This document shows, one piece after another, positions 8,280-37,142 of a stretch of 61,373 nucleotides of DNA; position 1 is the stretch's first letter; each line of letters begins with the position of its first letter. The DNA comes from a bacterium (GTDB taxonomy: Bacteria; Patescibacteriota; Minisyncoccia; Phycocordibacterales; UBA9973): NCBI GenBank assembly GCA_037130055.1, contig JBAXTS010000002.1, positions 1 to 61,373 on the forward strand, in the 5' to 3' direction. Below the pieces are notes generated by a model. It did no database searches. It saw only the letters and a program-made list of their open reading frames with translations, and was not told where the DNA came from. A program made the position numbers and the translations under genes.

Positions 8280-9984
8280 TTTTCTTATTAGATCTAGGGT
8301 CGTTCTATTTTTCGTAATGACCTTTGCATTTATTCTAGTGAGTAAATTATTTTATGTCCAAGTCGTGAATGGTAGAATTTATGCAGAAGCAGCTGATCAT
8401 CAGTATGTGACACCCTCGAGTGACATATACGAACGTGGTACTGTATATTTCGAGCGCAAAGATGGTGAACTTGTTTCTGCGGCTACGCAGACGACAGGAT
8501 TCAAGGTTGCTATCGTTTCAGTAAAAATTATCGATGGAGAATATACATACAATGAACTATCAAAAATTATAAGTCTTGACCATGATGATTTTATATCAAA
8601 AGTAGAAAAGAAGAACGATCCATATGAAGAAATAGTTAATCATCTTTCCAAAGGAGAAGCAGACGCGATCTCTATATTAAAATTACCTGGTGTAAGTATT
8701 TTTAAAGAAAAATGGCGTTTTTATCCTGGGGGAAGTTTGGCTTCACACACACTTGGTATTGTTGGTTACAAGGGCGACGAGCTTGGTGGGCGCTATGGAC
8801 TCGAAAGACAATATGAAAGCTTGCTTACTAGAAATGTCGATAATCCATATGTGAATTTCTTTGCTGAAGTATTTTCCAATTTACATAAAACATTTTTTGA
8901 GAATCAGGTTCCAGAGGGAGATATTGTGACGACAATAGAACCACAAGTTCAAAGCTTTTTGGAGAAAAAACTAGTTGAAGTAAAAGATAAATATCAAATT
9001 GACTCCATTGGTGGAATTATAATGAATCCCATAGATGGATCTATTTATGCGCTAAGTGTAAAACCAGATTTTAATCCAAATGATTTTTCACAAATAGACA
9101 AGGTTTCTACTTTTTCCAATCCTTTAGTAGAAAATGTTCTTGAATTTGGTTCTGTCGTTAAGCCTTTAGTGATGGCGGCCGCGCTTGATGTGGGAGCTGT
9201 ATCTGCAAATACAACATACAACGATAAAGGTTCTGTAATAGTAGAAAATAAAGAAATATTTAATTTTGATAAAAAAGGAAGAGGCCCAGGAACAAGCATG
9301 CAAGAGGTATTGAATCAATCATTGAATACCGGTATGGTTTTTGTTGAGCAGAAGCTTGGCAAAGAAAGACTTCGTGACTATTTGCTTTCCTATGGCATAA
9401 AAAACAAAACAGGAATTGATCTACCAAACGAAACCTCCGGACTTGTTTCTAATATAGTAAATAGCCCTCGTGAGATTGAATATGCTAATGCTGCCTTTGG
9501 ACAAGGAATAGCATTGACCCCTGTTGAATTAATTCGAGCACTAGCTTCTCTTGCAAATGGAGGAAATTTGGTTGTTCCACATGTGGTAAAGGAAATTAAA
9601 TATAATGATGGTACTACAAAAGAGATGACTTATCCAACAACTCCGACAAAGATATCAAAATCAACCTCAGAGGAAATAACTCGCATGCTTGTAACTGTGA
9701 TGGACAAAGCAATCAAAGGTGGATTGGGAAAGATTGATCGTTTTAGTGTCGCAGTAAAAACAGGAACTGCGCAAGTTGCAGATAATACAAACGGAGGATA
9801 TTATACAGACAGGCATACGCATTCCTTTTTTGGTTATTTCCCGGCCTATAATCCAAAGTTTATAATTTTTCTTTATGCAGTAAACCCAAAAGGTGTGCCA
9901 TATGCAGCGACAACGTGGACTGACCCTTTTTTGGAAATTACCAAATTTTTATTAAATTATTATGAAGTTGCGCCAGATAGATGA
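8269..9984 (+). CDS. ftsI: penicillin-binding protein 2/FtsI-type transpeptidase
   Basis: SVVK, SLN and KTGTA active-site motifs; N-terminal membrane anchor. Confidence 0.9.
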   Translation: MKYSFLIRSRVVLFFVMTFAFILVSKLFYVQVVNGRIYAEAADHQYVTPSSDIYERGTVYFERKDGELVSAATQTTGFKVAIVSVKIIDGEYTYNELSKIISLDHDDFISKVEKKNDPYEEIVNHLSKGEADAISILKLPGVSIFKEKWRFYPGGSLASHTLGIVGYKGDELGGRYGLERQYESLLTRNVDNPYVNFFAEVFSNLHKTFFENQVPEGDIVTTIEPQVQSFLEKKLVEVKDKYQIDSIGGIIMNPIDGSIYALSVKPDFNPNDFSQIDKVSTFSNPLVENVLEFGSVVKPLVMAAALDVGAVSANTTYNDKGSVIVENKEIFNFDKKGRGPGTSMQEVLNQSLNTGMVFVEQKLGKERLRDYLLSYGIKNKTGIDLPNETSGLVSNIVNSPREIEYANAAFGQGIALTPVELIRALASLANGGNLVVPHVVKEIKYNDGTTKEMTYPTTPTKISKSTSEEITRMLVTVMDKAIKGGLGKIDRFSVAVKTGTAQVADNTNGGYYTDRHTHSFFGYFPAYNPKFIIFLYAVNPKGVPYAATTWTDPFLEITKFLLNYYEVAPDR

Positions 9985-10013
9985 TTTGGTTATGAATTAC
10001 TAATTAAATTAAC

Positions 10014-11318
10014 ATGCATATATTTTTTAAAAATACTGTATCATATATATTAAAAACCGAATCACGATTGGTACTTTGGAAATATAAACCAAAAGTTATC
10101 GCTATTACTGGTTCTGTCGGAAAGACATCCACAAAAGATGCTGTTTATGCTGTGCTTTCAAAAGTTGCATATGTTCGTAAGAGTGAAAAAAGTTTTAATA
10201 GTGAGATAGGTATTCCACTTACGATCCTGGGATGTCCAAATGGTTGGAATAATCCATTCGTCTGGACAGTGAACATACTGAAGGGCTTTTGGTTAATTTT
10301 ATGGCCACACAAATACCCAAAATGGCTAGTACTTGAGGTGGGGATTGGCAAGCCAAATGATATGTATGAGGTAGCTTCTTGGCTTATGACTGATGCAGTT
10401 ATCATGACTGCGATAGGAGATACCCCTTCACATATTGAATTTTTCAAATCGCGCAAACATCTCATCGAAGAAAAGAGCCAACTAATAAAGACCTTGAGAA
10501 AAGATGGAATTTTGGTTTTAAACGCAGACGATGAGGCAGTTTTTGAGATGAAATCAATTACAAAAAATCTCACAATTACTTACGGATTCAAGGACGAAGT
10601 TGATATAAAGGTATCCAGTGATAATATTTTTTATAATGAAAAAAATGAACCAGAAGGAATAATATTTAGAATAGACAATGATGGGAAGAGCTTGCCTGTT
10701 GTAATAGAAGGAGTGTTTGGAAGAAACCATGTTTATGCATCTTTGGCTGCGCTTGCTCTTTCTTTTGGTTTGAAACTCAATATGATAAATGCAGTTCAGT
10801 CACTGAAGAATTATGATGTTCCTCCTGGGCGGATGCGCCTTTTAAAAGGAATTAGAGATAGCCTTATTATTGATGATACATATAATTCTTCTCCATTTGC
10901 ATGCGAGTCAGCATTAAAAACACTGGGTGAAATAAAATCCAAAGAAAATGATAGCAGAAAGATAGCGATCCTAGGCGACATGCTTGAATTAGGTAAGCAT
11001 ACTATTGAGGCGCACAACAACATAGGTCATATAGCAAAAGAAAATTCTGATGTTCTTGTGGCTGTGGGGCCAAGAGCAAAGACGATCAAGGAAGGTGCGA
11101 TAGAAGCAGGCATGCAAGAAGATAAAATTTTTGAGTTTTCAAATTCTCATGAAGCAGGAGTATTTATAAAAACATATATAAGAAAAAATGACTTGGTTTT
11201 GGTCAAAGGTTCACAGGGAATGAGAATGGAAAGAGTCTCTGGAATGATAATTCTAGACCAAAAAAATAAAAGTAGATTGCTTGTCAGACAGGATGTTGAG
11301 TGGCTCTGCAAGAAATAA
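10014..11318 (+). CDS. murF: Mur ligase, probable UDP-MurNAc-tripeptide--D-Ala-D-Ala ligase
   Basis: GSVGKTSTK ATP-binding loop; Mur ligase middle and C-terminal pattern; position after ftsI. Confidence 0.8.
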   Translation: MHIFFKNTVSYILKTESRLVLWKYKPKVIAITGSVGKTSTKDAVYAVLSKVAYVRKSEKSFNSEIGIPLTILGCPNGWNNPFVWTVNILKGFWLILWPHKYPKWLVLEVGIGKPNDMYEVASWLMTDAVIMTAIGDTPSHIEFFKSRKHLIEEKSQLIKTLRKDGILVLNADDEAVFEMKSITKNLTITYGFKDEVDIKVSSDNIFYNEKNEPEGIIFRIDNDGKSLPVVIEGVFGRNHVYASLAALALSFGLKLNMINAVQSLKNYDVPPGRMRLLKGIRDSLIIDDTYNSSPFACESALKTLGEIKSKENDSRKIAILGDMLELGKHTIEAHNNIGHIAKENSDVLVAVGPRAKTIKEGAIEAGMQEDKIFEFSNSHEAGVFIKTYIRKNDLVLVKGSQGMRMERVSGMIILDQKNKSRLLVRQDVEWLCKK

Positions 11319-11321
11319 CAC

Positions 11322-11567
11322 TCAAATTTCTCCAAAAATTTTTTTAATCCACTTTTCAATCTTTATTGTTGCAGAGTGAAGGTGCGGGTATTTCTGTGTA
11401 TATTTTTCTATTAGGGTTCGGGTTTCTGGAAATGAGAAAGACAAAAGAAAGAATCCAATAAACAAAAATAATATTCCTTGCAAAATTGGCAGAACAAGGC
11501 CAATTAGACCAAGTAATATAGAAATGACTGCTATCACTATAATTAATGCTCTCTTTATTCTTTTCAT
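11322..11567 (-). CDS. small two-helix membrane protein (YbaN/DUF454-like, tentative)
   Basis: 81 aa; hydrophobic LLGLIGLVLPIL... segment. Confidence 0.5.
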   Translation of the reverse strand: MKRIKRALIIVIAVISILLGLIGLVLPILQGILFLFIGFFLLSFSFPETRTLIEKYTQKYPHLHSATIKIEKWIKKIFGEI

Positions 11568-11655
11568 AAAGAAAGTATAACTTTAATTGATTGTAAAATC
11601 TAATACTGAGAGATTCCTTCACAGAATGTTCATATATATGATTTAAAATACAACA

Positions 11656-12117
11656 ATGCAAAAAAATTCAAAAATGATATATATAGTAATTATTATTTTT
11701 ATTATTGTTTTATGTGTGTGGATATATATATCAAACAATATGAGTACTGAACAGAACCCAAAGAATAACCCCGGTGTTTCAGCAATCCAAAATTCACAAG
11801 CTGGAAGCCAACTCTTTTCAAGTTCTCAGTTTGCACAAAATGCATATTTAATTTCTACACCTACTTACGATGCAACAGTAAATAAAGCATTGAGCGGCTT
11901 CAGTGTTGCTCGAACAGTACTCTCTGATGGTTCTACCCAATATGTACTAAATGCTACAAATCCAGAATACCAAACCCAGACATATACTGTGAACACCGGG
12001 GAGAAACTATATTTTATAGAGAGGAATCTGTCTGATGATAGTGTAAATGAAGACAAGTTCATTGGAGACGACACTGCTGTATTAGTTGATGCAGGGGGCT
12101 ACATAATCAAACAATAA
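11656..12117 (+). CDS. hypothetical secreted/membrane-anchored protein
   Basis: 153-aa ORF with an N-terminal hydrophobic helix and host-like AT-rich composition. Confidence 0.55.
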   Translation: MQKNSKMIYIVIIIFIIVLCVWIYISNNMSTEQNPKNNPGVSAIQNSQAGSQLFSSSQFAQNAYLISTPTYDATVNKALSGFSVARTVLSDGSTQYVLNATNPEYQTQTYTVNTGEKLYFIERNLSDDSVNEDKFIGDDTAVLVDAGGYIIKQ

Positions 12118-12131
12118 GCAATCGCACTTTC

Positions 12132-12162
12132 TTTGTGACCCTAATTATACGGAATTGGAACC
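12132..12162 (-). repeat. degenerate copy of tRNA-Glu 3' end (T-arm plus acceptor), P1
   Basis: The minus strand reads GGTTCCAATTCCGTATAATTAGGGTCACA, versus GGTTCGATTCCCGGTAGGGTCACA in the tRNA. Confidence 0.7.
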
Positions 12163-12203
12163 AGATTTTTAATCAAATAAAAAGTTTTTAAGAATCTTAT
12201 TCC

Positions 12204-12232
12204 TTGACAAATTTGTTTTTTTATATTTAAAT
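12204..12232 (+). promoter_or_regulatory. candidate promoter of cassette A (TTGACA-N17-TTAAAT)
   Basis: Consensus -35 hexamer and an AT-rich -10 candidate about 40 nt upstream of the GAGGAGGG Shine-Dalgarno. Confidence 0.4.
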
Positions 12233-12274
12233 TGTTATAGGAAACGTTCATCTGTATCACTAGAGGAGGGCCTC

Positions 12275-12547
12275 ATGGCCATCACGCACAACAGCTACTA
12301 CGAAGGAAGAGTGCAGTCACTCGGGTTCACGGACGGAAACGGCAAAGACGCCACTGTCGGCGTTCTGGAGCCGGGTATTTACAAGTTCGGACGTGCGGAA
12401 CGACGCGAAATAATCATCGTGCTCCATGGGACCATCTTCGCCAAAGGCCAGATCTTGGCGATCCACGACACAATCTGTTTCGAGGTAGGAGAAGAGGTTG
12501 AAGTTGAGGTTCGCGAAACGGCCGCCTATGGCTGCGTCTACTTCTAG
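12275..12547 (+). CDS. ppnP: PpnP/YaiE-family (DUF1255 cupin) pyrimidine/purine nucleoside phosphorylase-like protein
   Basis: NSYYEGRVQSLGF...ATVGVLEPGIYKF...AAYGCVYF aligns by eye with E. coli PpnP. Strong Shine-Dalgarno GAGGAGGG. About 55% G+C by hand count. Confidence 0.8.
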   Translation: MAITHNSYYEGRVQSLGFTDGNGKDATVGVLEPGIYKFGRAERREIIIVLHGTIFAKGQILAIHDTICFEVGEEVEVEVRETAAYGCVYF

Positions 12548-12575
12548 TTTGTGGGACGTTTTTCCTGCATCATAC

Positions 12576-12626
12576 GCCGTTCCCACCAGTCAACTGAAAA
12601 GGCCGACTGGAGGAACGGCTTTTTCT
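12576..12626 (+). terminator. rho-independent terminator of cassette A
   Basis: GCCGTTCC...GGAACGGC stem followed by TTTTTC; homologous to the terminator at 13331-13386. Confidence 0.7.
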
Positions 12627-12811
12627 ATTTCAATATAAAAAATAGTTGAACGCTTTGCGTACAATGTTTATGTGAGCCACAATAATTTGCTTTTCGACAA
12701 AAGCAAATTTTCCAGCCCCGGACTCAGCTATTTTTTCTACTAAAAAAATATGCTTCCGTCTTCACAAAAGCGAAAAAGACTAGAGCAGTCTAGTCTTTTT
12801 GAATTCGCGCT

Positions 12812-12842
12812 TTTGTGACCTTAATTATACGGAATTGGAACC
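12812..12842 (-). repeat. degenerate copy of tRNA-Glu 3' end, P2
   Basis: Differs from P1 at a single position (12821 T versus 12141 C). Confidence 0.7.
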
Positions 12843-12917
12843 GGGTTGTATGTCAAGTAAGGGGATTTGAGCAGTTTTTAAGCTAGGGGAAATAATTTTC
12901 ATGATAGTTTTTATGTA

Positions 12918-12946
12918 TTGACATTTAATATTGAATATGCTATAAT
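12918..12946 (+). promoter_or_regulatory. consensus sigma70 promoter of cassette B (TTGACA-N17-TATAAT)
   Basis: Both hexamers match the consensus perfectly, with a 17-nt spacer. Confidence 0.65.
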
Positions 12947-13058
12947 ATAAGGTATGTTCTTTAAAAGTGCTCTGGAAAGTGAAATGTAGAGGAGTATTTA
13001 GATTCGTCTTTAATTCACTTTTCAGAGCAAATGCGTTTATTTTCGAAGGAGAAGGAAG

Positions 13059-13322
13059 ATGTCAGAAGATTTGAGCAACGTTGAAGTTGAAGTGTTCACG
13101 TACCGTTCTGTGGTCGTCACTGAGCGGTTCCTCTTCTTGCCGAGGACGTTGTTGGATCAACTGGAAGAGGCCTTGGCCAAGAAGGCGGGGAAGAGACCGG
13201 ATAACCACACGGCCTACAAGCTCACGTGTCGGAACGGTCTGGGTGGCGAGAGCGTCACCTACATCGCGTTCAGCGACAACCTGGCTTCGTTCGGTCTCTC
13301 AATCGAGAAAACGCCCTGGTAA
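13059..13322 (+). CDS. hypothetical 87-aa protein (cassette B cargo)
   Basis: GC-rich ORF with Shine-Dalgarno AAGGAG 7 nt upstream; its own promoter and terminator; no family recognised. Confidence 0.65.
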   Translation: MSEDLSNVEVEVFTYRSVVVTERFLFLPRTLLDQLEEALAKKAGKRPDNHTAYKLTCRNGLGGESVTYIAFSDNLASFGLSIEKTPW

Positions 13323-13330
13323 TATCATCA

Positions 13331-13386
13331 GCCGTTCCGTCAGTTCGCGCAAACGAAAAAGCCGAACTGGAGGAACGGCTTTTTCT
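13331..13386 (+). terminator. rho-independent terminator of cassette B
   Basis: GCCGTTCC...GGAACGGC plus TTTTTC. It shares the 26-nt string ACTGGAGGAACGGCTTTTTCTATTT with cassette A. Confidence 0.7.
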
Positions 13387-13583
13387 ATTTTTATTTTTTA
13401 AAAAAAGTTGGATGCTTCGCATTCTATATTTACGTGGTCACAAGTTACTAAATTTTTTACTTCTTAAAATCGTAAAAAATGTAAGTACTTGCCGACCCCG
13501 GCTCGGCTATTTTTGTACTCAAAAATTATGCCTGCGCCTTCACAAATCACTTGCAAATAAAGCAGTTTATTTGCTTTGTGTGA

Positions 13584-13607
13584 TTTGTGACCCTACGCGG
13601 AAACGCG
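13584..13607 (-). repeat. degenerate copy of tRNA-Glu 3' end, P3 (miniaturised T-arm)
   Basis: The minus strand reads CGCGTTTCCGCGTAGGGTCACAAA, versus CGGGTTCGATTCCCGGTAGGGTCACA in the tRNA. Confidence 0.55.
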
Positions 13608-13755
13608 AGTACGCTTTCGGTCACAAATAATTTTTTGCTAAAAATTTTCGCTACCCCGCCTCGGACTCGTCAGTCCTGCGGCCTTCGATTCTCTCCGTAA
13701 GGAGATCACTAGCGATATAAAAATAACCCACTGATGTGGATTATTTTTGATCGTG

Positions 13756-13827
13756 TGACCCTACCGGGAATCGAACCCGAATTTAATCCTTGAGAAGGAT
13801 CCGTCCTAACCGTTAGACGATAGGGCC
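13756..13827 (-). tRNA. tRNA-Glu (anticodon CUC)
   Basis: Hand-folded cloverleaf: acceptor GGCCCUA/UAGGGUC, anticodon loop UUCUCAA, T-loop TTCGATT, 4-nt variable loop. Confidence 0.9.
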
Positions 13828-13909
13828 GTCAACAGGGGCATATCAATAATGCGATATGCCCAATAGAAAAAATATAGCATTTTTTCTTGGAAAATCAAAA
13901 ATAATTTTT

Positions 13910-14959
13910 TTAGTCTTCAATTTTAGGTTTTTCTACTTCAAGTAGCGAGAGTTCTGGAGAAGTTCCAGCTATGCGTAGGACATCTTTATCTATTTTTTTT
14001 AGTTCCTTATTTGATGCATTGTAATGGTTTACCACAGTACCTAGCGCGTTCCCGAGTTTATTGTGATATTCGTCATAGGATTTCAAATGCTTACCTAGGT
14101 CTTCTACTTTTTTTATTATTTCTTTTGCGGATTCTTCTATTTTAAGTGCTTTGAGTCCTTGGAGGACAGTTTGTAAATAGGCTAGAAAAGAAGTAGGAGA
14201 GGTGATTATAACTTTATATTTTCCTGCTGCACGTTGTATAAGGTTTTCATTCTCTTCAGTTGTTGATGCTCCGACTTTATTTGTAAGCAAGTCATAATAA
14301 ATAGCTTCGTGAGGGATAAACATAAATGCAAAATCTGTGGTGCCTTTTGTTGGATGGATATATTTTGCTGTTTCTGTAATTCTATTTTTAAGATCATTAA
14401 CAAAAACTGTTTCTAATCTTTTCTTTTCTGTTGCATCTCGTTCCTCAACCATTTTATTATAATTTTCTAGGGAGAATTTTGAATCAATTGGGATTATTTT
14501 ATCTTTTACAAAGACTACTGCATCTACGATAGTTCCATCAGGAAAAGGGTATTGCATTTGGTAGCTTCCAGGAGGTAAGACATTTTTTAAAACTGTTTCC
14601 AAATAATATTCTCCGAGTATGCCGCGTTGTTTTGGATTTTTTAAAATATTTTCCAGGCTCTGTAGTTGGTCTGCAAAAGAAATGACTTGTTTGTTTGTCT
14701 CATCGAGTCGTGTGAGTCGCTCTGTGACATCACGTATAATTTTATTAGATTCACTAGAGTGAAATCTTAAACTCTCGTTGACTTGTTTATGGCTTTCTCC
14801 TATTTTATTGTCCACTGTTCTAGAGAGCTCGTTTATTTGAGTTAGAATCAAGCCTAGACCTGTGTCATTCTTTTTTTCATCCTTCCTCTTGTTAAATATA
14901 AAATAAGCAGTGAAACCTCCAACCACGAGACCTATAAATATTCCAAAAATATTTTCCAT
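13910..14959 (-). CDS. rmuC: DNA recombination protein RmuC
   Basis: N-terminal transmembrane helix, long coiled coil, and a C-terminal RmuC nuclease-like region (…VDAVV…IPIDSKF…). Confidence 0.88.
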   Translation of the reverse strand: MENIFGIFIGLVVGGFTAYFIFNKRKDEKKNDTGLGLILTQINELSRTVDNKIGESHKQVNESLRFHSSESNKIIRDVTERLTRLDETNKQVISFADQLQSLENILKNPKQRGILGEYYLETVLKNVLPPGSYQMQYPFPDGTIVDAVVFVKDKIIPIDSKFSLENYNKMVEERDATEKKRLETVFVNDLKNRITETAKYIHPTKGTTDFAFMFIPHEAIYYDLLTNKVGASTTEENENLIQRAAGKYKVIITSPTSFLAYLQTVLQGLKALKIEESAKEIIKKVEDLGKHLKSYDEYHNKLGNALGTVVNHYNASNKELKKIDKDVLRIAGTSPELSLLEVEKPKIED

Positions 14960-15002
14960 TCTAATATTTTAACACCTTTATTTTGTAAAGAGAAATTTCT
15001 GA

Positions 15003-15045
15003 ATAAAAGAGAAAGCCACCGTAAAAGCTAGGCTTTCCCGGTGGC
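15003..15045 (-). terminator. terminator of GC islet C
   Basis: GCCACCG...CGGTGGC stem followed on the minus strand by TTTCTCTTTT. Confidence 0.55.
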
Positions 15046-15047
15046 GA

Positions 15048-15308
15048 TTATGACGATTGTTCTGGTGTTGCTTCTAGCCAGAACACATGTGGCAGGAGAA
15101 TGTCCTGGAGCACGACGACCTCATTCGAAATGAGCTTGCAATTCATCCAGTTTTTGAGCGAGCCGTCACTTATTCGTAGCCCGTCCGGGATGCGCAAGCT
15201 TTCCAGAAACTCTCCAGATGATGAGAATACACGACCTCGTGTAACCCGGTTCGACTCCAGAGATATCTCAAATGAAATTCTCTGGTTAGCTCTTAGGTTG
15301 TTGAACAT
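15048..15308 (-). CDS. hypothetical 86-aa protein (islet C, distal gene)
   Basis: GC-rich ORF with GGAG 8 nt upstream of the ATG; followed by a terminator. Confidence 0.55.
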   Translation of the reverse strand: MFNNLRANQRISFEISLESNRVTRGRVFSSSGEFLESLRIPDGLRISDGSLKNWMNCKLISNEVVVLQDILLPHVFWLEATPEQSS

Positions 15309-15366
15309 GTTACTCCAAATTGTGGGCGGAGCTCTATGAGACGACCTCCGCCCACAGGTGCCGAAT

Positions 15367-15621
15367 CTAACACCTTTCGACGACTCCGAAGGTGTATCCG
15401 CTCCTACTCATCGATACCACAGCAAGCGGCTTGCCAGAATGAACAGCAAGGCCGAGCAAATATGCTCGCATCTCGTCTCCAGGGGCGAGGTCCTGGGGGA
15501 CCTTCAGCTGCTCGATGGGCTCCCTATCTGGCGTTATGGCGAGATGTACACCAGGGAAGACGAACGCTGTGAGCACACCACTTTGCTGCATAAACATCAC
15601 GAGTTGGTTTTTCCCAATCAT
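15367..15621 (-). CDS. hypothetical 84-aa protein (islet C, proximal gene)
   Basis: GC-rich ORF; Shine-Dalgarno GGGAGGAG 3 nt upstream of the ATG; promoter-like hexamers upstream. Confidence 0.6.
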   Translation of the reverse strand: MIGKNQLVMFMQQSGVLTAFVFPGVHLAITPDREPIEQLKVPQDLAPGDEMRAYLLGLAVHSGKPLAVVSMSRSGYTFGVVERC

Positions 15622-15668
15622 CGGCTCCTCCCAAAAAACGAAGCATAAAAGAACACCTAGTAGCTATA

Positions 15669-27412: not shown

Positions 27413-27456
27413 TTTGTTGAGCCAGTTCCTGATGTAAACAATCTGGGGGTGACACC

Positions 27457-27684
27457 ATGGCAAAGAGCGCATCTATCGGTCGTTGCTACGGATGTTCGAT
27501 GGAGATAGTTCGGCTCGCATGGAGAGAGAACCGTCGCACTATTGTAATATCATGCCCGAAGTGTGACCGGGAGATAGAGATCGATCTTGAATGCATGATC
27601 GACGCACTAGGAGAAGCAGGACATCCCGACTTTCGCATTCCAAAGGGGAAGATTGCTTCCCAGGAACCAGAAATGGTCTCATGA
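27457..27684 (+). CDS. hypothetical 75-aa zinc-ribbon protein (islet D gene 1)
   Basis: CYGC...CPKC four-cysteine pattern; Shine-Dalgarno GGGGGTG; GC-rich. Confidence 0.6.
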   Translation: MAKSASIGRCYGCSMEIVRLAWRENRRTIVISCPKCDREIEIDLECMIDALGEAGHPDFRIPKGKIASQEPEMVS

Positions 27685-27929
27685 TGAAGGGGGGGTACAA
27701 GATGGAAGACAGTCGTAGGGGTGAGATTGCTGTGTCTATAATCAAGTACCTCATGCGTAAGCATGGGGTAGAGCTGTCTCAGAACAACATGAGACAGATG
27801 GGCATAGTAGCCAAGGAGACCGGCATCCCGGTAGCCGAGATCAGAGAATTTGTCCAGCCGCTCCTCGAGGAGATGCTGGCCGAGTTCTTCTTCAAGCAGC
27901 CCTCCCTTTTCATTCCAGTGAAAAGGTAG
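27681..27929 (+). CDS. hypothetical protein (islet D gene 2; alternative start 27702)
   Basis: ATGA start/stop overlap with gene 1; a G7 run at 27689-27695 could instead serve as the Shine-Dalgarno for ATG 27702; a terminator follows. Confidence 0.55.
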   Translation: MMKGGYKMEDSRRGEIAVSIIKYLMRKHGVELSQNNMRQMGIVAKETGIPVAEIREFVQPLLEEMLAEFFFKQPSLFIPVKR

Positions 27930-27939
27930 GCGACCAAAG

Positions 27940-27983
27940 GGTCGGAACAGGGCAACACGCCCTCTTCCGACCATTTCTTATTT
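27940..27983 (+). terminator. terminator of islet D
   Basis: GGTCGGAA...TTCCGACC stem followed by ATTTCTTATTT. Confidence 0.6.
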
Positions 27984-28047
27984 AATATAAATTATTGTGT
28001 ATCGTTTTGCATTTAGTTTTATATATAGTATTTCCACACACCGATTT

Positions 28048-35885: not shown

Positions 35886-36608
35886 ATGTCAAAATTTTAT
35901 GTAGTGGCGACGCCTATTGGGAATATGGGAGATATAACTCTTCGAGCAATTGAGACGTTGAAGAGCGTGGATTTGATATTGTGCGAGGACACTCGTATGA
36001 CGAAGAGGCTTTTGGATAAATATGCTATTAGCAAGCCAACTATGAGCTACCATGCACAGAGCAAACTCGCAAAGACAGATAAAATTTTTGAATTATTGGA
36101 GGAAGGGAAGAACCTTGCTTTAGTATCAGACGCAGGCACACCCGGAATTTCTGATCCAGGAGCATTACTTGTATCACAAATTAAAGAAAGATTTAACCTT
36201 TCCCCTTCGCCCCTCTCCTTAACAAGGAGAGGGGCTGGGGGTGAGGTCAGTGTTGAGGTAGTCCCTATTCCGGGCCCCACTGCTTTGATTACTGCTTTGT
36301 CTGGTTCTGGACTGCCTACACATGAATTTACATTTCTTGGATTTTTACCACACAAAAAGGGGAGAGAGACCTTATTTAAAGAAATAGCACAATCCAAAAG
36401 GACTGTGGTGTTTTATGAATCCCCACACAGAATTTTAAAAACACTAGAATCACTTGTAAAATTTTGTCCAAATAAAAAGGTTTGTGTTGCTCGTGAGTTA
36501 ACGAAAATTTATGAAGAATTTAAAACTGGAACACCCGCAGAAGTTCTGGAATATTTTAATAAAAATAAAGATAAAGTAAGAGGGGAGTTTACAGTAATTG
36601 TCGCCTAA
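35886..36608 (+). CDS. rsmI: 16S rRNA 2'-O-ribose C1402 methyltransferase RsmI (with an in-frame repeat insertion)
   Basis: FYVVATPIGNMGDITLRA, DAGTPGISDPG and PIPGPTA motifs; start set at ATG 35886. Confidence 0.9.
   Translation: MSKFYVVATPIGNMGDITLRAIETLKSVDLILCEDTRMTKRLLDKYAISKPTMSYHAQSKLAKTDKIFELLEEGKNLALVSDAGTPGISDPGALLVSQIKERFNLSPSPLSLTRRGAGGEVSVEVVPIPGPTALITALSGSGLPTHEFTFLGFLPHKKGRETLFKEIAQSKRTVVFYESPHRILKTLESLVKFCPNKKVCVARELTKIYEEFKTGTPAEVLEYFNKNKDKVRGEFTVIVA
36197..36246 (+). repeat. G-element copy inside the rsmI coding sequence
   Basis: CCCCTCTCCTTaacAAGGAGAGGGGctGGGGGTGAGG, translated in frame as ...LSPSPLSLTRRGAGGEV... Confidence 0.8.
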
Positions 36609-36662
36609 AATTAAAAAGCTCCGGAGGGACGCACGACAGGTATTTCCTGTGTGCGCCCTTCT
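36607..36662 (-). terminator. terminator of GC islet E
   Basis: Minus strand GGGCGCACACAGG-AAATA-CCTGTCGTGCGTCCC, then ...GCTTTTTAATTTT. Confidence 0.5.
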
Positions 36663-36697
36663 CGGATGATGTGTGTGGTGAGCGCGCGTTGCGCTCG

Positions 36698-36847
36698 TTA
36701 CTTCTCGATATGGGACGCCTTCTCGGGGTCGGTATCCCAGAGAGTTCCGGCGTCTGCGTCGGGAAATGGTGCCGGTTTGGTTGGAGTGTGTGGATAGTTG
36801 GCCGGGATGATGGTCATGCAGATAGGCTCTGCTGTCTCGATCGTCAT
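36698..36847 (-). CDS. hypothetical 49-aa proline-rich protein (islet E gene 2)
   Basis: Its ATG overlaps the gene 1 stop codon (TGATG); GC-rich; short, so uncertain. Confidence 0.4.
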   Translation of the reverse strand: MTIETAEPICMTIIPANYPHTPTKPAPFPDADAGTLWDTDPEKASHIEK

Positions 36848-37092
36848 CACGTTTGATTCCGCGCCTTCGTGCGGCACCGCCAATCTTTCATCGTTATTGC
36901 ACACGATGCCTCCTCGATGATGCTAACTTCGACGATGACTTGACCTTGGGAGTCGCGCAAACCCCACCCTGGTTTTGTCGAAAGAGCTTGCTTCGCCACT
37001 TCGAATGTGGCCTCGAGACGCTCCGGGTACTGTTCCTCCATTGTGAATGCCATTTCAGGCACAAACGGTGGTACAAGGTAGTACACTGCCAT
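36847..37092 (-). CDS. hypothetical 81-aa protein (islet E gene 1)
   Basis: AAAGGAGG Shine-Dalgarno 8 nt upstream of ATG 37092; promoter upstream; no family recognised. Confidence 0.6.
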   Translation of the reverse strand: MAVYYLVPPFVPEMAFTMEEQYPERLEATFEVAKQALSTKPGWGLRDSQGQVIVEVSIIEEASCAITMKDWRCRTKARNQT

Positions 37093-37113
37093 GGCTTCGC
37101 CTCCTTTCATTTA

Positions 37114-37142
37114 AAATATAAGCGATATAAATATTATGTCAA
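37114..37142 (-). promoter_or_regulatory. promoter of islet E (TTGACA-N17-ATATTT)
   Basis: Read on the minus strand; the -35 hexamer abuts the priA stop codon. Confidence 0.5.

What the first reader, a model, noticed from the sequence alone, without database searches (positions are those of the whole stretch)
12122..13827. Stacked single-gene cassettes at the 3' end of tRNA-Glu: shared backbone, swapped GC-rich cargo, no recombinase in cis
Besides the intact tRNA-Glu (13756-13827, minus strand), three degenerate direct copies of its last 25-30 nt lie at 12132-12162, 12812-12842 and 13584-13607. These copies cover the T-arm plus acceptor, with core TTGTGACC on the plus strand. They cut the region into units of 680 and 772 bp.

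Both units have the same architecture:
- a pseudo-tRNA end;
- AGTTTTTAAG (12183 and 12873);
- a TTGACA-type promoter;
- a strong Shine-Dalgarno;
- one GC-rich ORF;
- a homologous terminator, with GCCGTTCC and the 26-nt string ACTGGAGGAACGGCTTTTTCTATTT shared, while the inner stem differs by compensatory changes (CCAGTC/GACTGG versus CAGTTCG/CGAACTG);
- a roughly 190-nt hairpin-rich tail.

In the tail, the stems covary (TCACAAAAGCG/CGCTTTTGTGA versus TCACAAATCAC/GTGATTTGTGA). The inner hairpins have unrelated stems but the same GCAG loop (12773-12800 and 13553-13574).

The cargo ORFs are unrelated: a PpnP-like cupin in one unit and an unknown 87-aa protein in the other. TTGTGACC also occurs inverted (GGTCACAA at 13436 and 13619), as expected for recombinase-binding arms.

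This looks like a tRNA-targeting, integron-cassette-like or miniature-island system that carries one promoter-equipped gene per unit and is mobilised in trans. I do not recognise it as a described element type.
Basis: partly seen in the sequence, partly recalled or inferred. Interest (0 to 1): 0.82.

Follow-up and report, generated by a model that had tools for sequence, protein, structure and literature searches.

The report
tRNA-Glu-trailing structured RNA array with inserted genes
The repeats are real, but the shared "backbone" is three tandem copies of an undescribed ~190-nt structured RNA-like element on the opposite strand, each headed by a relic of the tRNA-Glu 3' end, with two unrelated self-contained small genes lodged between the copies.

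Summary

**The backbone.** The "hairpin-rich tail" is not scaffolding for the plus-strand ORFs. It is a ~190-nt element whose structure fits only the minus strand, the tRNA-sense strand. On 67 sequences, 45 pairs are predicted, 34 of them with compensatory changes. It matches no Rfam family. Homologs lie directly 3' of intact tRNA-Glu(CTC) or tRNA-Glu(TTC) in related Paceibacteria MAGs and in at least 112 metagenome contigs. They are often in tandem and mostly carry no cargo. The window holds three copies (A, B and a divergent C).

**Signs of insertion.** Each copy is preceded by a relic of the tRNA-Glu 3' end. Some relatives have empty sites, with the tRNA 10-18 nt from murF. Junctions combine a conserved arm with a tRNA end that usually matches the local allele. 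This points to repeated insertion at the tRNA 3' end. No recombinase was found in about 200 loci.

**The cargo.** The two GC-rich genes belong to a separate class. Three similar islets sit at tRNA-free sites in the window, and ORF-B homologs stand alone elsewhere.

An integron-like cassette system is not supported. The function of the RNA-like element and the insertion mechanism remain unknown.

The parts
13755..13827 (-). Intact tRNA-Glu(CTC), the anchor of the array. Its last 3 nt (UCA) form the start of helix P1 in tRNA-linked tails.
   Evidence: ARAGORN; Rfam tRNA 58.6 bits. A promoter-like site (TTGATT-16-TATATT) lies upstream at 13898-13871.
13597..13762 (-). Tail C: a divergent third copy of the structured element, directly behind the tRNA. 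It keeps the core GAAGGCCGCAGG..CCGAGGCGGGGUAGCGAAAA..UUUGUGACC.
   Evidence: Model R1 gives 16.2 bits, E 0.017. Partial homologs exist in L116, L098, L128, L183 and L193. A similarly placed unit follows the tRNA in L133 and L146 (similarity by my reading, not scored).
13584..13628 (-). Type-2 junction. It combines a conserved arm (UUUGUGACCGAAAGCGUACUCGCG, 13604-13627) with a displaced tRNA-Glu 3' fragment (UUUCCGCGUAGGGUCA). The fragment has a CCGCG T-stem allele that differs from the current tRNA (CCCGG).
   Evidence: (D11). The same arm joined to a different tRNA end that matches the local tRNA occurs in L077, L133, L146, L155, L086 and L189.
13394..13594 (-). Tail B: a full copy of the ~190-nt structured element (B-type).
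   Evidence: R1 gives 178.6 bits, E 5.7e-45. It is 90% identical to the tail directly behind tRNA-Glu in L027. Covariation.
13331..13390 (+). Terminator of cassette B: GCCGTTCC...GGAACGGC followed by a T-run. It is homologous to terminator A.
   Evidence: (D4, I1).
13059..13322 (+). ORF B: 87 aa, GC1/2/3 = 0.50/0.40/0.74. It is a real small-protein family of unknown function.
   Evidence: Full HMMER search finds 65 homologs at 35-55% identity. AlphaFold mean pLDDT is 94.4, with no PDB fold match. No Pfam or PHROG hit.
12918..13029 (+). Cassette B promoter (TTGACA-17-TATAAT, 12918-12946) and a 26-nt-arm hairpin in the 5' UTR (12968-13029).
   Evidence: 12/12 match; I2.
12812..12882 (-). Type-1 junction: a decayed tRNA-Glu 3' half (GGUUCCAAUUCC-GUAUAAUUA-AGGUCA) heading tail A. 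It contains a TATAAT box about 7 nt before the tail start.
   Evidence: (D2). The same junction occurs in L004, L014, L027, L028 and L119/L135, and in degenerate form by my reading in L069.
12632..12822 (-). Tail A: a full copy of the structured element (A-type).
   Evidence: R1 gives 186.7 bits, E 4.3e-47. It is 84-92% identical over 99-130-nt blocks to tails in L061, L080, L016 and L076.
12576..12630 (+). Terminator of cassette A.
12275..12547 (+). ORF A: 90 aa, PpnP-family cupin, GC1/2/3 = 0.58/0.37/0.68.
   Evidence: Pfam PF06865 at 1.7e-13. The word-indexed search returned only one other homolog, at 44% identity, in a PRA-CH/HIT operon.
12204..12233 (+). Cassette A promoter-like site (TTGACA-18-TAAATT).
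   Evidence: 10/12 match.
12132..12192 (-). Outer type-1 junction: a decayed tRNA-Glu 3' half with no tail behind it. It marks the distal boundary of the array, and its TATAAT lies at 12144-12149.
   Evidence: Alignment to the tRNA scores 32, with 0/2000 shuffles as high. Minus-strand promoter-like site at 12172-12144. In L027 the homologous junction sits where the tRNA 3' end sits in the empty-site relative L007.

Best explanation
Window 12132-13827 is a tandem array on the minus strand: tRNA-Glu(CTC), then tail C, junction, tail B, junction, tail A, and an outer junction.

**The tail.** It is a ~190-nt, multi-helix structured element that belongs to a large, undescribed family. Family members trail tRNA-Glu genes in Paceibacteria (Nomurabacteria and relatives). 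It most likely acts as an RNA, either co-transcribed with the tRNA or driven by the TATAAT box in the type-1 junction.

**The junctions.** Each junction is a relic of the tRNA-Glu 3' end.

**How the array arose (inferred).** The array most likely grew by repeated insertion of tail-bearing units at the tRNA 3' end. This resembles tandem accretion of integrase-less elements, with any recombinase supplied in trans. Local duplication and gene conversion then modified it.

**The two plus-strand genes.** They are separate, self-contained units, each with its own promoter, Shine-Dalgarno sequence, ORF and terminator. They lie convergent to the tails in the spacers between a tail and the next junction. 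They belong to a genome-wide class of GC-rich small-gene islets and are not tied to the tail.

**Shown:** the structure, strand, family distribution, junction anatomy, empty sites, and the independence of the cargo.
**Inferred:** RNA rather than single-stranded DNA, the insertion mechanism, and the function.
For: - **Structure and strand.** 67 sequences give 45 pairs, 34 with compensatory changes. 97.3% of cells are paired against 79.6% in shuffles. The covariation score is 0.524 against 0.198 (0/500 shuffles as high), and slid controls give 0.05-0.13. G-U pairs at columns 139/211, 143/208 and 144/207 fit only the tRNA-sense strand.
- **Not a known family.** No Rfam family matches.
- **Copies in the window.** The model finds exactly three, all on the minus strand.
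- **Family distribution.** In the metagenome loci, 36 tails directly follow tRNA-Glu(CTC), 31 follow tRNA-Glu(TTC), and one each follows tRNA-Arg and tRNA-Ala genes ending in AGGGTC(C)A. 26 loci hold two or more tails. Of neighbouring tail pairs, 35 are co-oriented and 2 are opposed.
- **Independent gene.** Some copies stand alone behind promoter-like sequence, with a TATAAT at the same distance as in the type-1 junction.
- **Insertion signature.**
  - The tRNA-to-murF gap is 10-18 nt in L073 and L007, but holds tail plus junction in L027, which has an identical tRNA.
  - A repeat of the local tRNA's last 12-19 nt lies just past the tail in about 10 of 67 loci. No upstream control reached the top score band (0 of 60, against 5 of 67 downstream).
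  - A conserved arm is joined to a tRNA end that matches the local allele in most loci.
- **Cargo is independent.** It has no homolog in about 200 loci. Three further islets occur at tRNA-free sites. ORF-B homologs stand alone between other genes, with their own promoter and terminator.
- **Not a chimera.** The Logan contigs agree with the window.
Against: - No integrase or transposase was found in the window or in about 200 loci. No tail was found in IMG/VR. The insertion mechanism therefore has no identified enzyme.
- The type-1 junctions of different species share the same derived changes, including the GTATAATTA insertion. That fits inheritance or copying of one old relic better than independent integrations.
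- Near-identical neighbouring tails in L133 show that local duplication also occurs.
- The displaced fragment at 13584-13607 carries a different T-stem allele from the present tRNA, and L182 also mismatches its local tRNA. These cases need extra steps to explain.
- Expression of the tail was not tested. Structure in single-stranded DNA cannot be excluded.
- Cassettes A and B share a homologous terminator and sit at equivalent positions. This is unexplained if they arrived independently.
Confidence: 0.6

Rival explanations
1. Purely local evolution. An ancestral tRNA-Glu plus small-RNA operon was tandemly duplicated in place. The redundant tRNA copies decayed to the junctions, the paralogous tails (A, B, C) diverged and exchanged segments by gene conversion, and unrelated genes later landed in the spacers. 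No site-specific insertion of tail units occurred.
For: - Type-1 junctions share identical derived changes across species.
- The order B then A recurs in the window, L061, L014 and L145.
- Neighbouring near-identical tails occur in L133.
- P1, P2 and P3 types combine in mosaic fashion across the 67-sequence alignment.
- No recombinase was found.
- In-place duplication gives allele-matched repeats by construction.
Against: - Tails follow four different tRNA genes in different contexts, and their presence is patchy: 13-15 of 80 related species at this locus.
- Empty sites have the tRNA abutting murF.
- Single tails followed by a tRNA-end repeat and then unrelated DNA (L077, L085, L168, L182) would need a precise secondary deletion each time.
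- A conserved non-tRNA arm sits to the left of the repeats.
Confidence: 0.22
2. Each unit (pseudo-tRNA end, promoter, one gene, terminator and tail) is one mobile, integron-cassette-like element. It targets tRNA-Glu and is mobilised in trans, with the tail and terminator serving as its recombination backbone.
For: - Two units share the same architecture and a homologous terminator.
- Variable genes lie between tail and junction in L014, L028 and L069, and between the tRNA and the junction in L004, which has no detected tail.
- Genes lie between successive tails in L104, L178 and L191. A GC-rich small ORF lies right behind the tail in L023.
- Structure on the strand opposite the cargo is what integron attC sites show (from established knowledge of attC bottom-strand folding, not tested here).
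Against: - Most tails carry no cargo.
- The cassette parts have no homolog in about 200 loci.
- Cargo orientation and composition are inconsistent elsewhere.
- The same gene-unit type occurs without tails.
- The tail is a 190-nt, multi-branch, sequence-conserved element, sometimes with its own promoter-like sequence. It is not a single imperfect hairpin.
- No IntI-like gene was found.
Confidence: 0.12
3. Decayed remnants of ordinary integrase-bearing genomic islands or prophages at a tRNA hotspot. In this reading, tails and cargo are leftovers with no function of their own.
For: - The anatomy of a regenerated tRNA plus displaced fragments is the classical one (PMC4383910). Tandem islands bounded by 20-bp ssrA repeats, with a conserved flanking motif, are known in Dehalococcoides (PMC3146451).
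- The tRNA-Glu to murF gap varies from 10 nt to more than 4.5 kb, whether or not a tail is present.
- L051 has a 299-aa tyrosine recombinase 115 nt after tRNA-Glu.
Against: - The tail is conserved at 80-92% between species and shows pervasive compensatory change. It is under selection, not decaying.
- No island genes are shared between species at this site.
- No tail occurs in 2.9 million viral contigs.
- The L051 recombinase has no tRNA-end repeat downstream and may be a housekeeping Xer recombinase.
Confidence: 0.05

Closest known systems
tRNA/tmRNA-gene-integrating genomic islands, tandem accretion and cis-mobilizable elements (CIMEs), for example the Dehalococcoides ssrA islands
   Same: - A regenerated target gene sits at one end and displaced 3' fragments act as direct repeats at unit boundaries.
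- Several units are stacked behind one target gene.
- A conserved non-target motif lies just upstream of each repeat, which places the insertion point in the T-loop or 3' region.
- Some units lack recombination genes.
- Sources: PMC4383910, PMC3146451, PMC5704250. Shown here.
   Different: - Units here are 0.2-0.8 kb rather than kilobases to tens of kilobases.
- No integration module was seen in about 200 loci.
- Every unit carries a conserved structured RNA-like element.
- One junction type is a shared, conserved relic with a promoter-like box rather than a fresh displaced fragment.
Integron gene-cassette arrays (attC sites)
   Same: - A repeated structured element alternates with unrelated, often orphan, small genes.
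- The structure is specific to one strand, opposite to the cargo.
- No recombinase lies inside the units.
   Different: - There is no intI, attI or Pc.
- The repeat is a ~190-nt, four-to-five-helix element with conserved junction sequences, not a 57-141-nt imperfect hairpin.
- It mostly occurs without cargo and directly behind tRNAs.
- The cargo genes have their own promoters and terminators.
tRNA-linked small RNAs (3' external transcribed spacer RNAs such as 3'ETS-leuZ; tRNA-punctuated ncRNAs such as MALAT1-mascRNA)
   Same: The element is encoded immediately 3' of a tRNA on the same strand, so tRNA 3' processing would define its 5' end. This is a positional inference.
   Different: - It is much larger and more structured.
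- It is multi-copy, in arrays with tRNA relics.
- It also occurs alone behind promoter-like sequence.
- Expression and processing were not tested.
Morons (self-contained promoter-gene-terminator units of deviant composition in prophages)
   Same: Cassettes A and B and three other islets each have their own promoter-like site, a strong Shine-Dalgarno sequence, one or two small ORFs, a terminator, and about 51-53% GC in a 37% GC genome.
   Different: They lie in the chromosome between core genes or between RNA-element copies, not inside a prophage. They have no useful PHROG match (one weak hit to a family of unknown function).

Membership tests
tRNA-gene-integrating genomic island (Islander-type definition) | Intact, regenerated target tRNA at one end | tested here: met
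   tRNA-Glu(CTC) at 13755-13827.
tRNA-gene-integrating genomic island (Islander-type definition) | Displaced fragment: a direct repeat of the tRNA 3' part at the far end | tested here: met
   Three relics, at 12132, 12812 and 13584. The same pattern occurs in relatives.
tRNA-gene-integrating genomic island (Islander-type definition) | Integrase gene inside the island | tested here: not met
   Pfam on window and cargo ORFs. jackhmmer seeded with XerD over 2512 ORFs, including the window, found only L051. Pfam on 148 neighbour cluster representatives showed no recombinase among the 25 families listed of 135. Sensitivity to remote integrases is limited.
tRNA-gene-integrating genomic island (Islander-type definition) | Empty target site in relatives | tested here: met
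   The tRNA-Glu to murF gap is 10 nt in L073, 18 nt in L007, 56 nt in L041 and 71 nt in L078.
tRNA-gene-integrating genomic island (Islander-type definition) | Excision to a circular form with a restored attB | not testable with these tools
   No reads are available. Logan contig breaks at 13582 and 13781 are only a hint.
Cis-mobilizable element / tandem accretion | Units flanked by att-like repeats but lacking integration genes, stacked with internal att sites | tested here: met
Cis-mobilizable element / tandem accretion | A cognate integrase-bearing element of the same site specificity | tested here: inconclusive
   None was found in about 2 Mb of related loci or in IMG/VR. Whole genomes were not available.
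Integron cassette array | IntI integrase with attI and the Pc promoter next to the array | tested here: not met
   No tyrosine recombinase was found in the 61-kb window. The array neighbours are rmuC and a 153-aa protein of unknown function.
Integron cassette array | attC: a single imperfect inverted repeat of 57-141 nt at the 3' end of each cassette | tested here: not met
   The repeated element is about 190 nt with 8 helices and 3 branch points. The only hairpin next to each ORF is a terminator followed by a T-run.
Integron cassette array | The repeat occurs only as a cassette boundary | tested here: not met
   69 of 151 tail hits lie directly behind intact tRNAs, and many arrays carry no genes.
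Any Rfam 15 RNA family | Match at or near the family's gathering score | tested here: not met
   Only tRNA reached threshold. The best other scores were 17-29 bits against gathering scores of 39-100.
tRNA 3'-trailer-derived small RNA | Encoded in the tRNA 3' trailer on the same strand | tested here: met
   The tail starts at the last 3 nt of the tRNA in 73 of 121 5'-complete copies.
tRNA 3'-trailer-derived small RNA | Co-transcription with, and release from, the tRNA precursor | not testable with these tools
   No transcriptome data are available.
Moron-like autonomous gene unit | Own promoter and terminator, with deviant base composition | tested here: met
Moron-like autonomous gene unit | Located inside a prophage | tested here: not met
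   The neighbours are core genes or the RNA-element array. There is no useful PHROG match.

The most novel reading that the evidence does not exclude
The ~190-nt tail, as RNA or as folded single-stranded DNA, may be the core of an undescribed class of miniature insertion modules that encode no recombinase. In this reading, the modules home to the 3' end of tRNA genes ending in AGGGTC(C)A in Paceibacteria and duplicate the last 12-45 nt of the target. They stack in tandem and create a landing pad where unrelated small genes accumulate.
Probability: 0.25. Interest if true: 0.82.

Novelty: new variant of a known kind. Interest (0 to 1): 0.6.

Why it matters
- **A new RNA-like family.** A widespread, strongly covarying ~190-nt structured element matches nothing in Rfam. 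It is present in one to four copies behind tRNA-Glu genes in a large group of ultra-small, uncultivated bacteria. Such RNA classes have often pointed to new biochemistry.
- **An unexplained way of spreading.** The element lies between a tRNA and a repeat of that tRNA's end. Related species have empty sites. It occurs behind four different tRNA genes. No recombinase is in sight. Either a trans-acting enzyme or an unknown insertion route operates in these reduced genomes.
- **A separate pattern of gene gain.** GC-rich small genes with their own promoter and terminator are scattered between core genes of an AT-rich genome. This may show how these bacteria acquire new genes.
- **Annotation.** The gene caller behind the public record called no gene in this 1.8-kb stretch.

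Tried and rejected
- **Assembly chimera: rejected.** Three independent Logan contigs are 100% identical across the junctions.
- **Known RNA family: rejected.** This covers SRP, 6S, RNase P, tmRNA, ribozymes and omega/bridge RNAs. Four Rfam scans found none. ARAGORN found no tmRNA. No TnpB, IscB or IS110-like neighbour turned up.
- **Hammerhead-like CUGACGAG in unit C:** on reading, it is only a GGAC/GUCC hairpin loop.
- **Protein coding in the tail: rejected.** Indels are not in multiples of three, and the substitutions are pair-compensating.
- **Phage origin:** three IMG/VR scans with backbone or tail patterns found nothing.
- **Integrase in cargo or neighbours:** not found. The L051 recombinase lacks a downstream tRNA repeat.
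- **Cargo ORFs as non-coding GC-rich RNA: rejected.** Evidence: the codon-position GC pattern, the Pfam hit, 65 protein homologs and a confident fold.
- **My idea that the 13584-13628 junction is a tRNA-like minihelix processing signal: weakened.** Its 5' strand turned out to be the P3 strand of tail C.
- **Literature:** four full-text searches found no description of this element.


Full report
**1. Observation**

The window is an AT-rich (37% GC) contig, ENA ERZ27300037 k141_188369, from a Candidatus Nomurabacteria / Paceibacteria organism.

tRNA-Glu(CTC) lies at 13755-13827 on the minus strand.

The 30-nt string TTGTGACCYTAATTATACGGAATTGGAACC occurs exactly twice (12133 and 12813), and the 25-nt string ACTGGAGGAACGGCTTTTTCTATTT exactly twice (12606 and 13366). 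For each, 0.00 matches are expected in shuffles. A third tRNA-end copy lies at 13584-13607.

In alignment to the tRNA, the outer copy is significant (0/2000 shuffles) and the 13584 copy is significant at about 1%. The middle copy is significant only through its near-identity to the outer one.

The following were all found as described:
- promoter-like sites (12918-12946, 12/12; 12204-12233, 10/12);
- Shine-Dalgarno sequences;
- two unrelated GC-rich ORFs;
- homologous terminators and homologous tails of about 190 nt.

Independent Logan contigs from SRR7053541 are 100% identical over 9796-12374, 12354-13582 and 13781-15668. The arrangement is therefore not a chimera.

**2. What the tail is**

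BLAST and nhmmer against 80 loci from related GTDB genomes gave an unexpected result. The tail lies immediately 3' of the intact tRNA-Glu in L027, L069, L028, L014, L037, L061, L016, L076, L068 and others, in the tRNA's orientation.

A 13-sequence alignment gave 48 predicted pairs, 35 with compensatory changes.

One metagenome scan with a tail motif returned at least 119 contigs, of which 112 carry the element.

On 67 non-redundant full-length copies:
- RNAalifold predicts 45 pairs, 34 with changes on both sides.
- 97.3% of cells are paired, against 79.6% in shuffles.
- The covariation score is 0.524, against 0.198 in shuffles (0/500 as high) and 0.05-0.13 for slid controls.

Frequent G-U pairs (columns 139/211, 143/208, 144/207) would be C-A mismatches on the other strand. 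The structure therefore belongs to the tRNA-sense strand, which is the window's minus strand and antisense to the two ORFs.

The element has:
- a long first hairpin (P1) with a conserved ACUGCU loop;
- a branched middle domain with conserved GUGAAG and GCYGAGYCSGGG;
- a long P3 hairpin;
- a short GCGAAGC hairpin followed by a U-run.

No Rfam 15 family matches.

A covariance model finds three copies in the window, all on the minus strand: 12632-12822 (186.7 bits), 13394-13594 (178.6 bits) and a divergent one at 13597-13762 (16.2 bits, E 0.017) directly behind the tRNA.

**3. Distribution of the family**

In the metagenome loci, 36 copies directly follow tRNA-Glu(CTC) and 31 follow tRNA-Glu(TTC). 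One follows a tRNA-Arg(GCG) and one a tRNA-Ala(UGC), whose 3' ends read AGGGTCA and AGGGTCCA.

Twenty-six loci hold two to four copies. Neighbouring copies are co-oriented in 35 of 37 cases, often with no gene between them.

About eight copies stand alone behind promoter-like sequence of the form ...TTCGCGCAAAGGATATAAT-TACATCACAAA.

At the rmuC locus, only 13-15 of 80 related species have the element.

No protein family recurs next to it, and it is absent from IMG/VR.

**4. The junctions**

*Type 1.* This junction (window 12132-12192 and 12812-12882) is homologous to tRNA-Glu from the anticodon arm to the 3' end. It carries a GTATAATTA insertion that creates a TATAAT box about 7 nt before the tail start. 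The same sequence, with the same derived changes, occurs in L004, L014, L027, L028 and L119/L135, and in degenerate form by my reading in L069.

In L004, L014, L027 and L028 it bounds a variable region downstream of tRNA-Glu:
- about 20 nt of spacer beyond the tail in L027;
- about 1.2 kb in L004 and L028;
- about 4 kb in L014.

A more degenerate copy plays the same role in L069, distal to one 190-aa gene.

The genes in these regions are unrelated between species, and none is an integrase.

*Type 2.* This junction (window 13584-13628) has a conserved arm (UUUGUGACCGAAAGCGUACUCGCG) followed by the last 15-20 nt of a tRNA-Glu. The arm recurs in L077, L133, L146, L155, L086, L189 and L091. The tRNA part follows the local T-stem allele in L077 (CCCTG) and in L133/L146/L155/L086/L189 (CTCTG). 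It does not match in L182, nor in the window, where it is CCGCG against the present CCCGG.

This is the logic used to place the insertion point of the Dehalococcoides ssrA islands (PMC3146451).

**5. Evidence for insertion**

The distance from tRNA-Glu to murF is 10 nt in L073 and 18 nt in L007. In L027, whose tRNA is identical to that of L007, a tail plus a type-1 junction lie in between. The junction there occupies the place of the tRNA 3' end relative to the murF stop codon.

Across 67 tRNA-adjacent tails, a repeat of the local tRNA's last 12-19 nt lies 190-410 nt downstream in about ten cases. In the top score band (13 or higher) there were 5 of 67 downstream and 0 of 60 upstream controls. 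In L077, L085, L168 and L182 the repeat is followed by unrelated DNA.

Together with the occurrence behind four different tRNA genes, this argues that tail-bearing units were inserted at tRNA 3' ends more than once.

Several facts argue against a simple integrase story:
- No recombinase was found. A jackhmmer search seeded with XerD over 2512 ORFs found only L051, a 299-aa gene next to tRNA-Glu with no downstream repeat. Pfam checks also found none.
- The type-1 relic is shared between species.
- Local duplication is evident in L133.

I therefore favour accretion by an unidentified trans-acting mechanism combined with local duplication and conversion. The closest known kinds are tandem accretion and cis-mobilizable elements (PMC5704250) and displaced-fragment islands (PMC4383910).

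**6. The cargo**

*ORF A* is a PpnP-family cupin. The word-indexed search returned only one other homolog, at 44% identity, in an ordinary operon.

*ORF B* has no close relatives, but a full HMMER search finds 65 homologs of 74-112 aa. Its predicted fold is confident (pLDDT 94.4) and has no PDB match. Codon-position GC supports coding for both ORFs.

ORF-B homologs stand alone between unrelated core genes, or with their own consensus promoter and terminator and no tail nearby.

The window holds three more GC-rich units with their own promoter and terminator, at 15014-15658, 27414-27992 and 36568-37118. All encode orphan proteins and none is near a tail.

The promoters, ORFs and terminators of cassettes A and B have no counterpart in about 200 related loci.

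The cargo class is therefore independent of the tail. The one unexplained link is that cassettes A and B share a homologous terminator and sit at equivalent positions, convergent to the tail.

**7. Verdict**

Repeated units at a tRNA 3' end, other copies elsewhere, empty sites and no recombinase in cis all hold. The model of an integron-like single-gene cassette system with a shared scaffold does not hold.

The most interesting object is the structured element itself and the way it multiplies behind tRNA genes. Its function, and whether it acts as RNA or as folded DNA, are not established.

Noticed in passing
window 15014-15658 (minus strand; ORFs 15367-15621 and 15048-15308): A third GC-rich islet (51% GC) lies between rmuC and an RNase T-like exonuclease. 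It has a TTGACT-17-ATAATT promoter-like site, strong Shine-Dalgarno sequences, two orphan ORFs (84 and 86 aa) and a terminator. There is no tRNA or tail nearby. The Logan contig L003 ends at 15668, right at its edge.
   Followed up: partly
window 27414-27992 (plus strand) and 36568-37118 (minus strand): Two more GC-rich units, each with two small ORFs, their own promoter-like site and a terminator, sit between core genes. All four ORFs lack a confident Pfam or PHROG match. One is a CxxC...CxxC zinc-ribbon-like 75-aa protein.
   Followed up: partly
window 13582/13583 and 13780/13781: The Logan contigs of SRR7053541 break at 13582 and at 13781, bracketing the segment that holds the tRNA 3' part, tail C and the type-2 junction. 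This may reflect strain variation at these boundaries, or simply that no gene was called in the gap. It could not be checked without reads.
   Followed up: no
window 12968-13029: A long hairpin with 26-nt arms (81% complementary) lies in the 5' UTR of ORF B, between its consensus promoter and the Shine-Dalgarno sequence. It may be a regulatory or processing element.
   Followed up: no
L051 8985-9884: A 299-aa tyrosine recombinase gene lies 115 nt downstream of tRNA-Glu(CTC). It is the only such gene found in about 200 loci. No tRNA-end repeat occurs in the next 6 kb, so it may be a housekeeping Xer recombinase.
   Followed up: partly
L012 9073-10194, L016 9039-10205, L026 8144-9187 (all minus strand): A GC-rich gene of 347-388 aa with no Pfam match lies between rmuC and tRNA-Glu in three species (33-70% identical). 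The gap between rmuC and the tRNA is itself highly variable, from 56 nt to several kb, and often GC-rich.
   Followed up: partly
L113 1698-1952; L099 1-167: Tails directly follow a tRNA-Arg(GCG) gene and a tRNA-Ala(UGC) gene whose 3' ends (AGGGTCA and AGGGTCCA) resemble that of tRNA-Glu.
   Followed up: partly
L149 1965-2177 (alignment A3, columns 39-66): One tail carries a 28-nt GC-rich insertion in the apical loop of P1. This suggests that the loop tolerates insertions or is itself a target.
   Followed up: no
Alignment A3 (67 tails): P1, P2c and P3 variants combine in mosaic fashion; for example, L162 has an A-type P1 with a B-type P3, and L182 and L193 show the reverse. This indicates recombination between paralogous copies.
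   Followed up: no
L023 8520-8790: A GC-rich 48-aa ORF with its own promoter-like site, Shine-Dalgarno sequence and terminator lies convergent to, and directly behind, a partly deleted tail. The layout is the same as in the window, but the sequences are unrelated.
   Followed up: partly
window 11656-12117: A 153-aa predicted membrane-anchored protein next to the outer junction has no confident Pfam or PHROG match (only weak, sub-threshold Pfam hits), and no nucleotide-level match in the 80 related loci. It may be part of the variable region.
   Followed up: no
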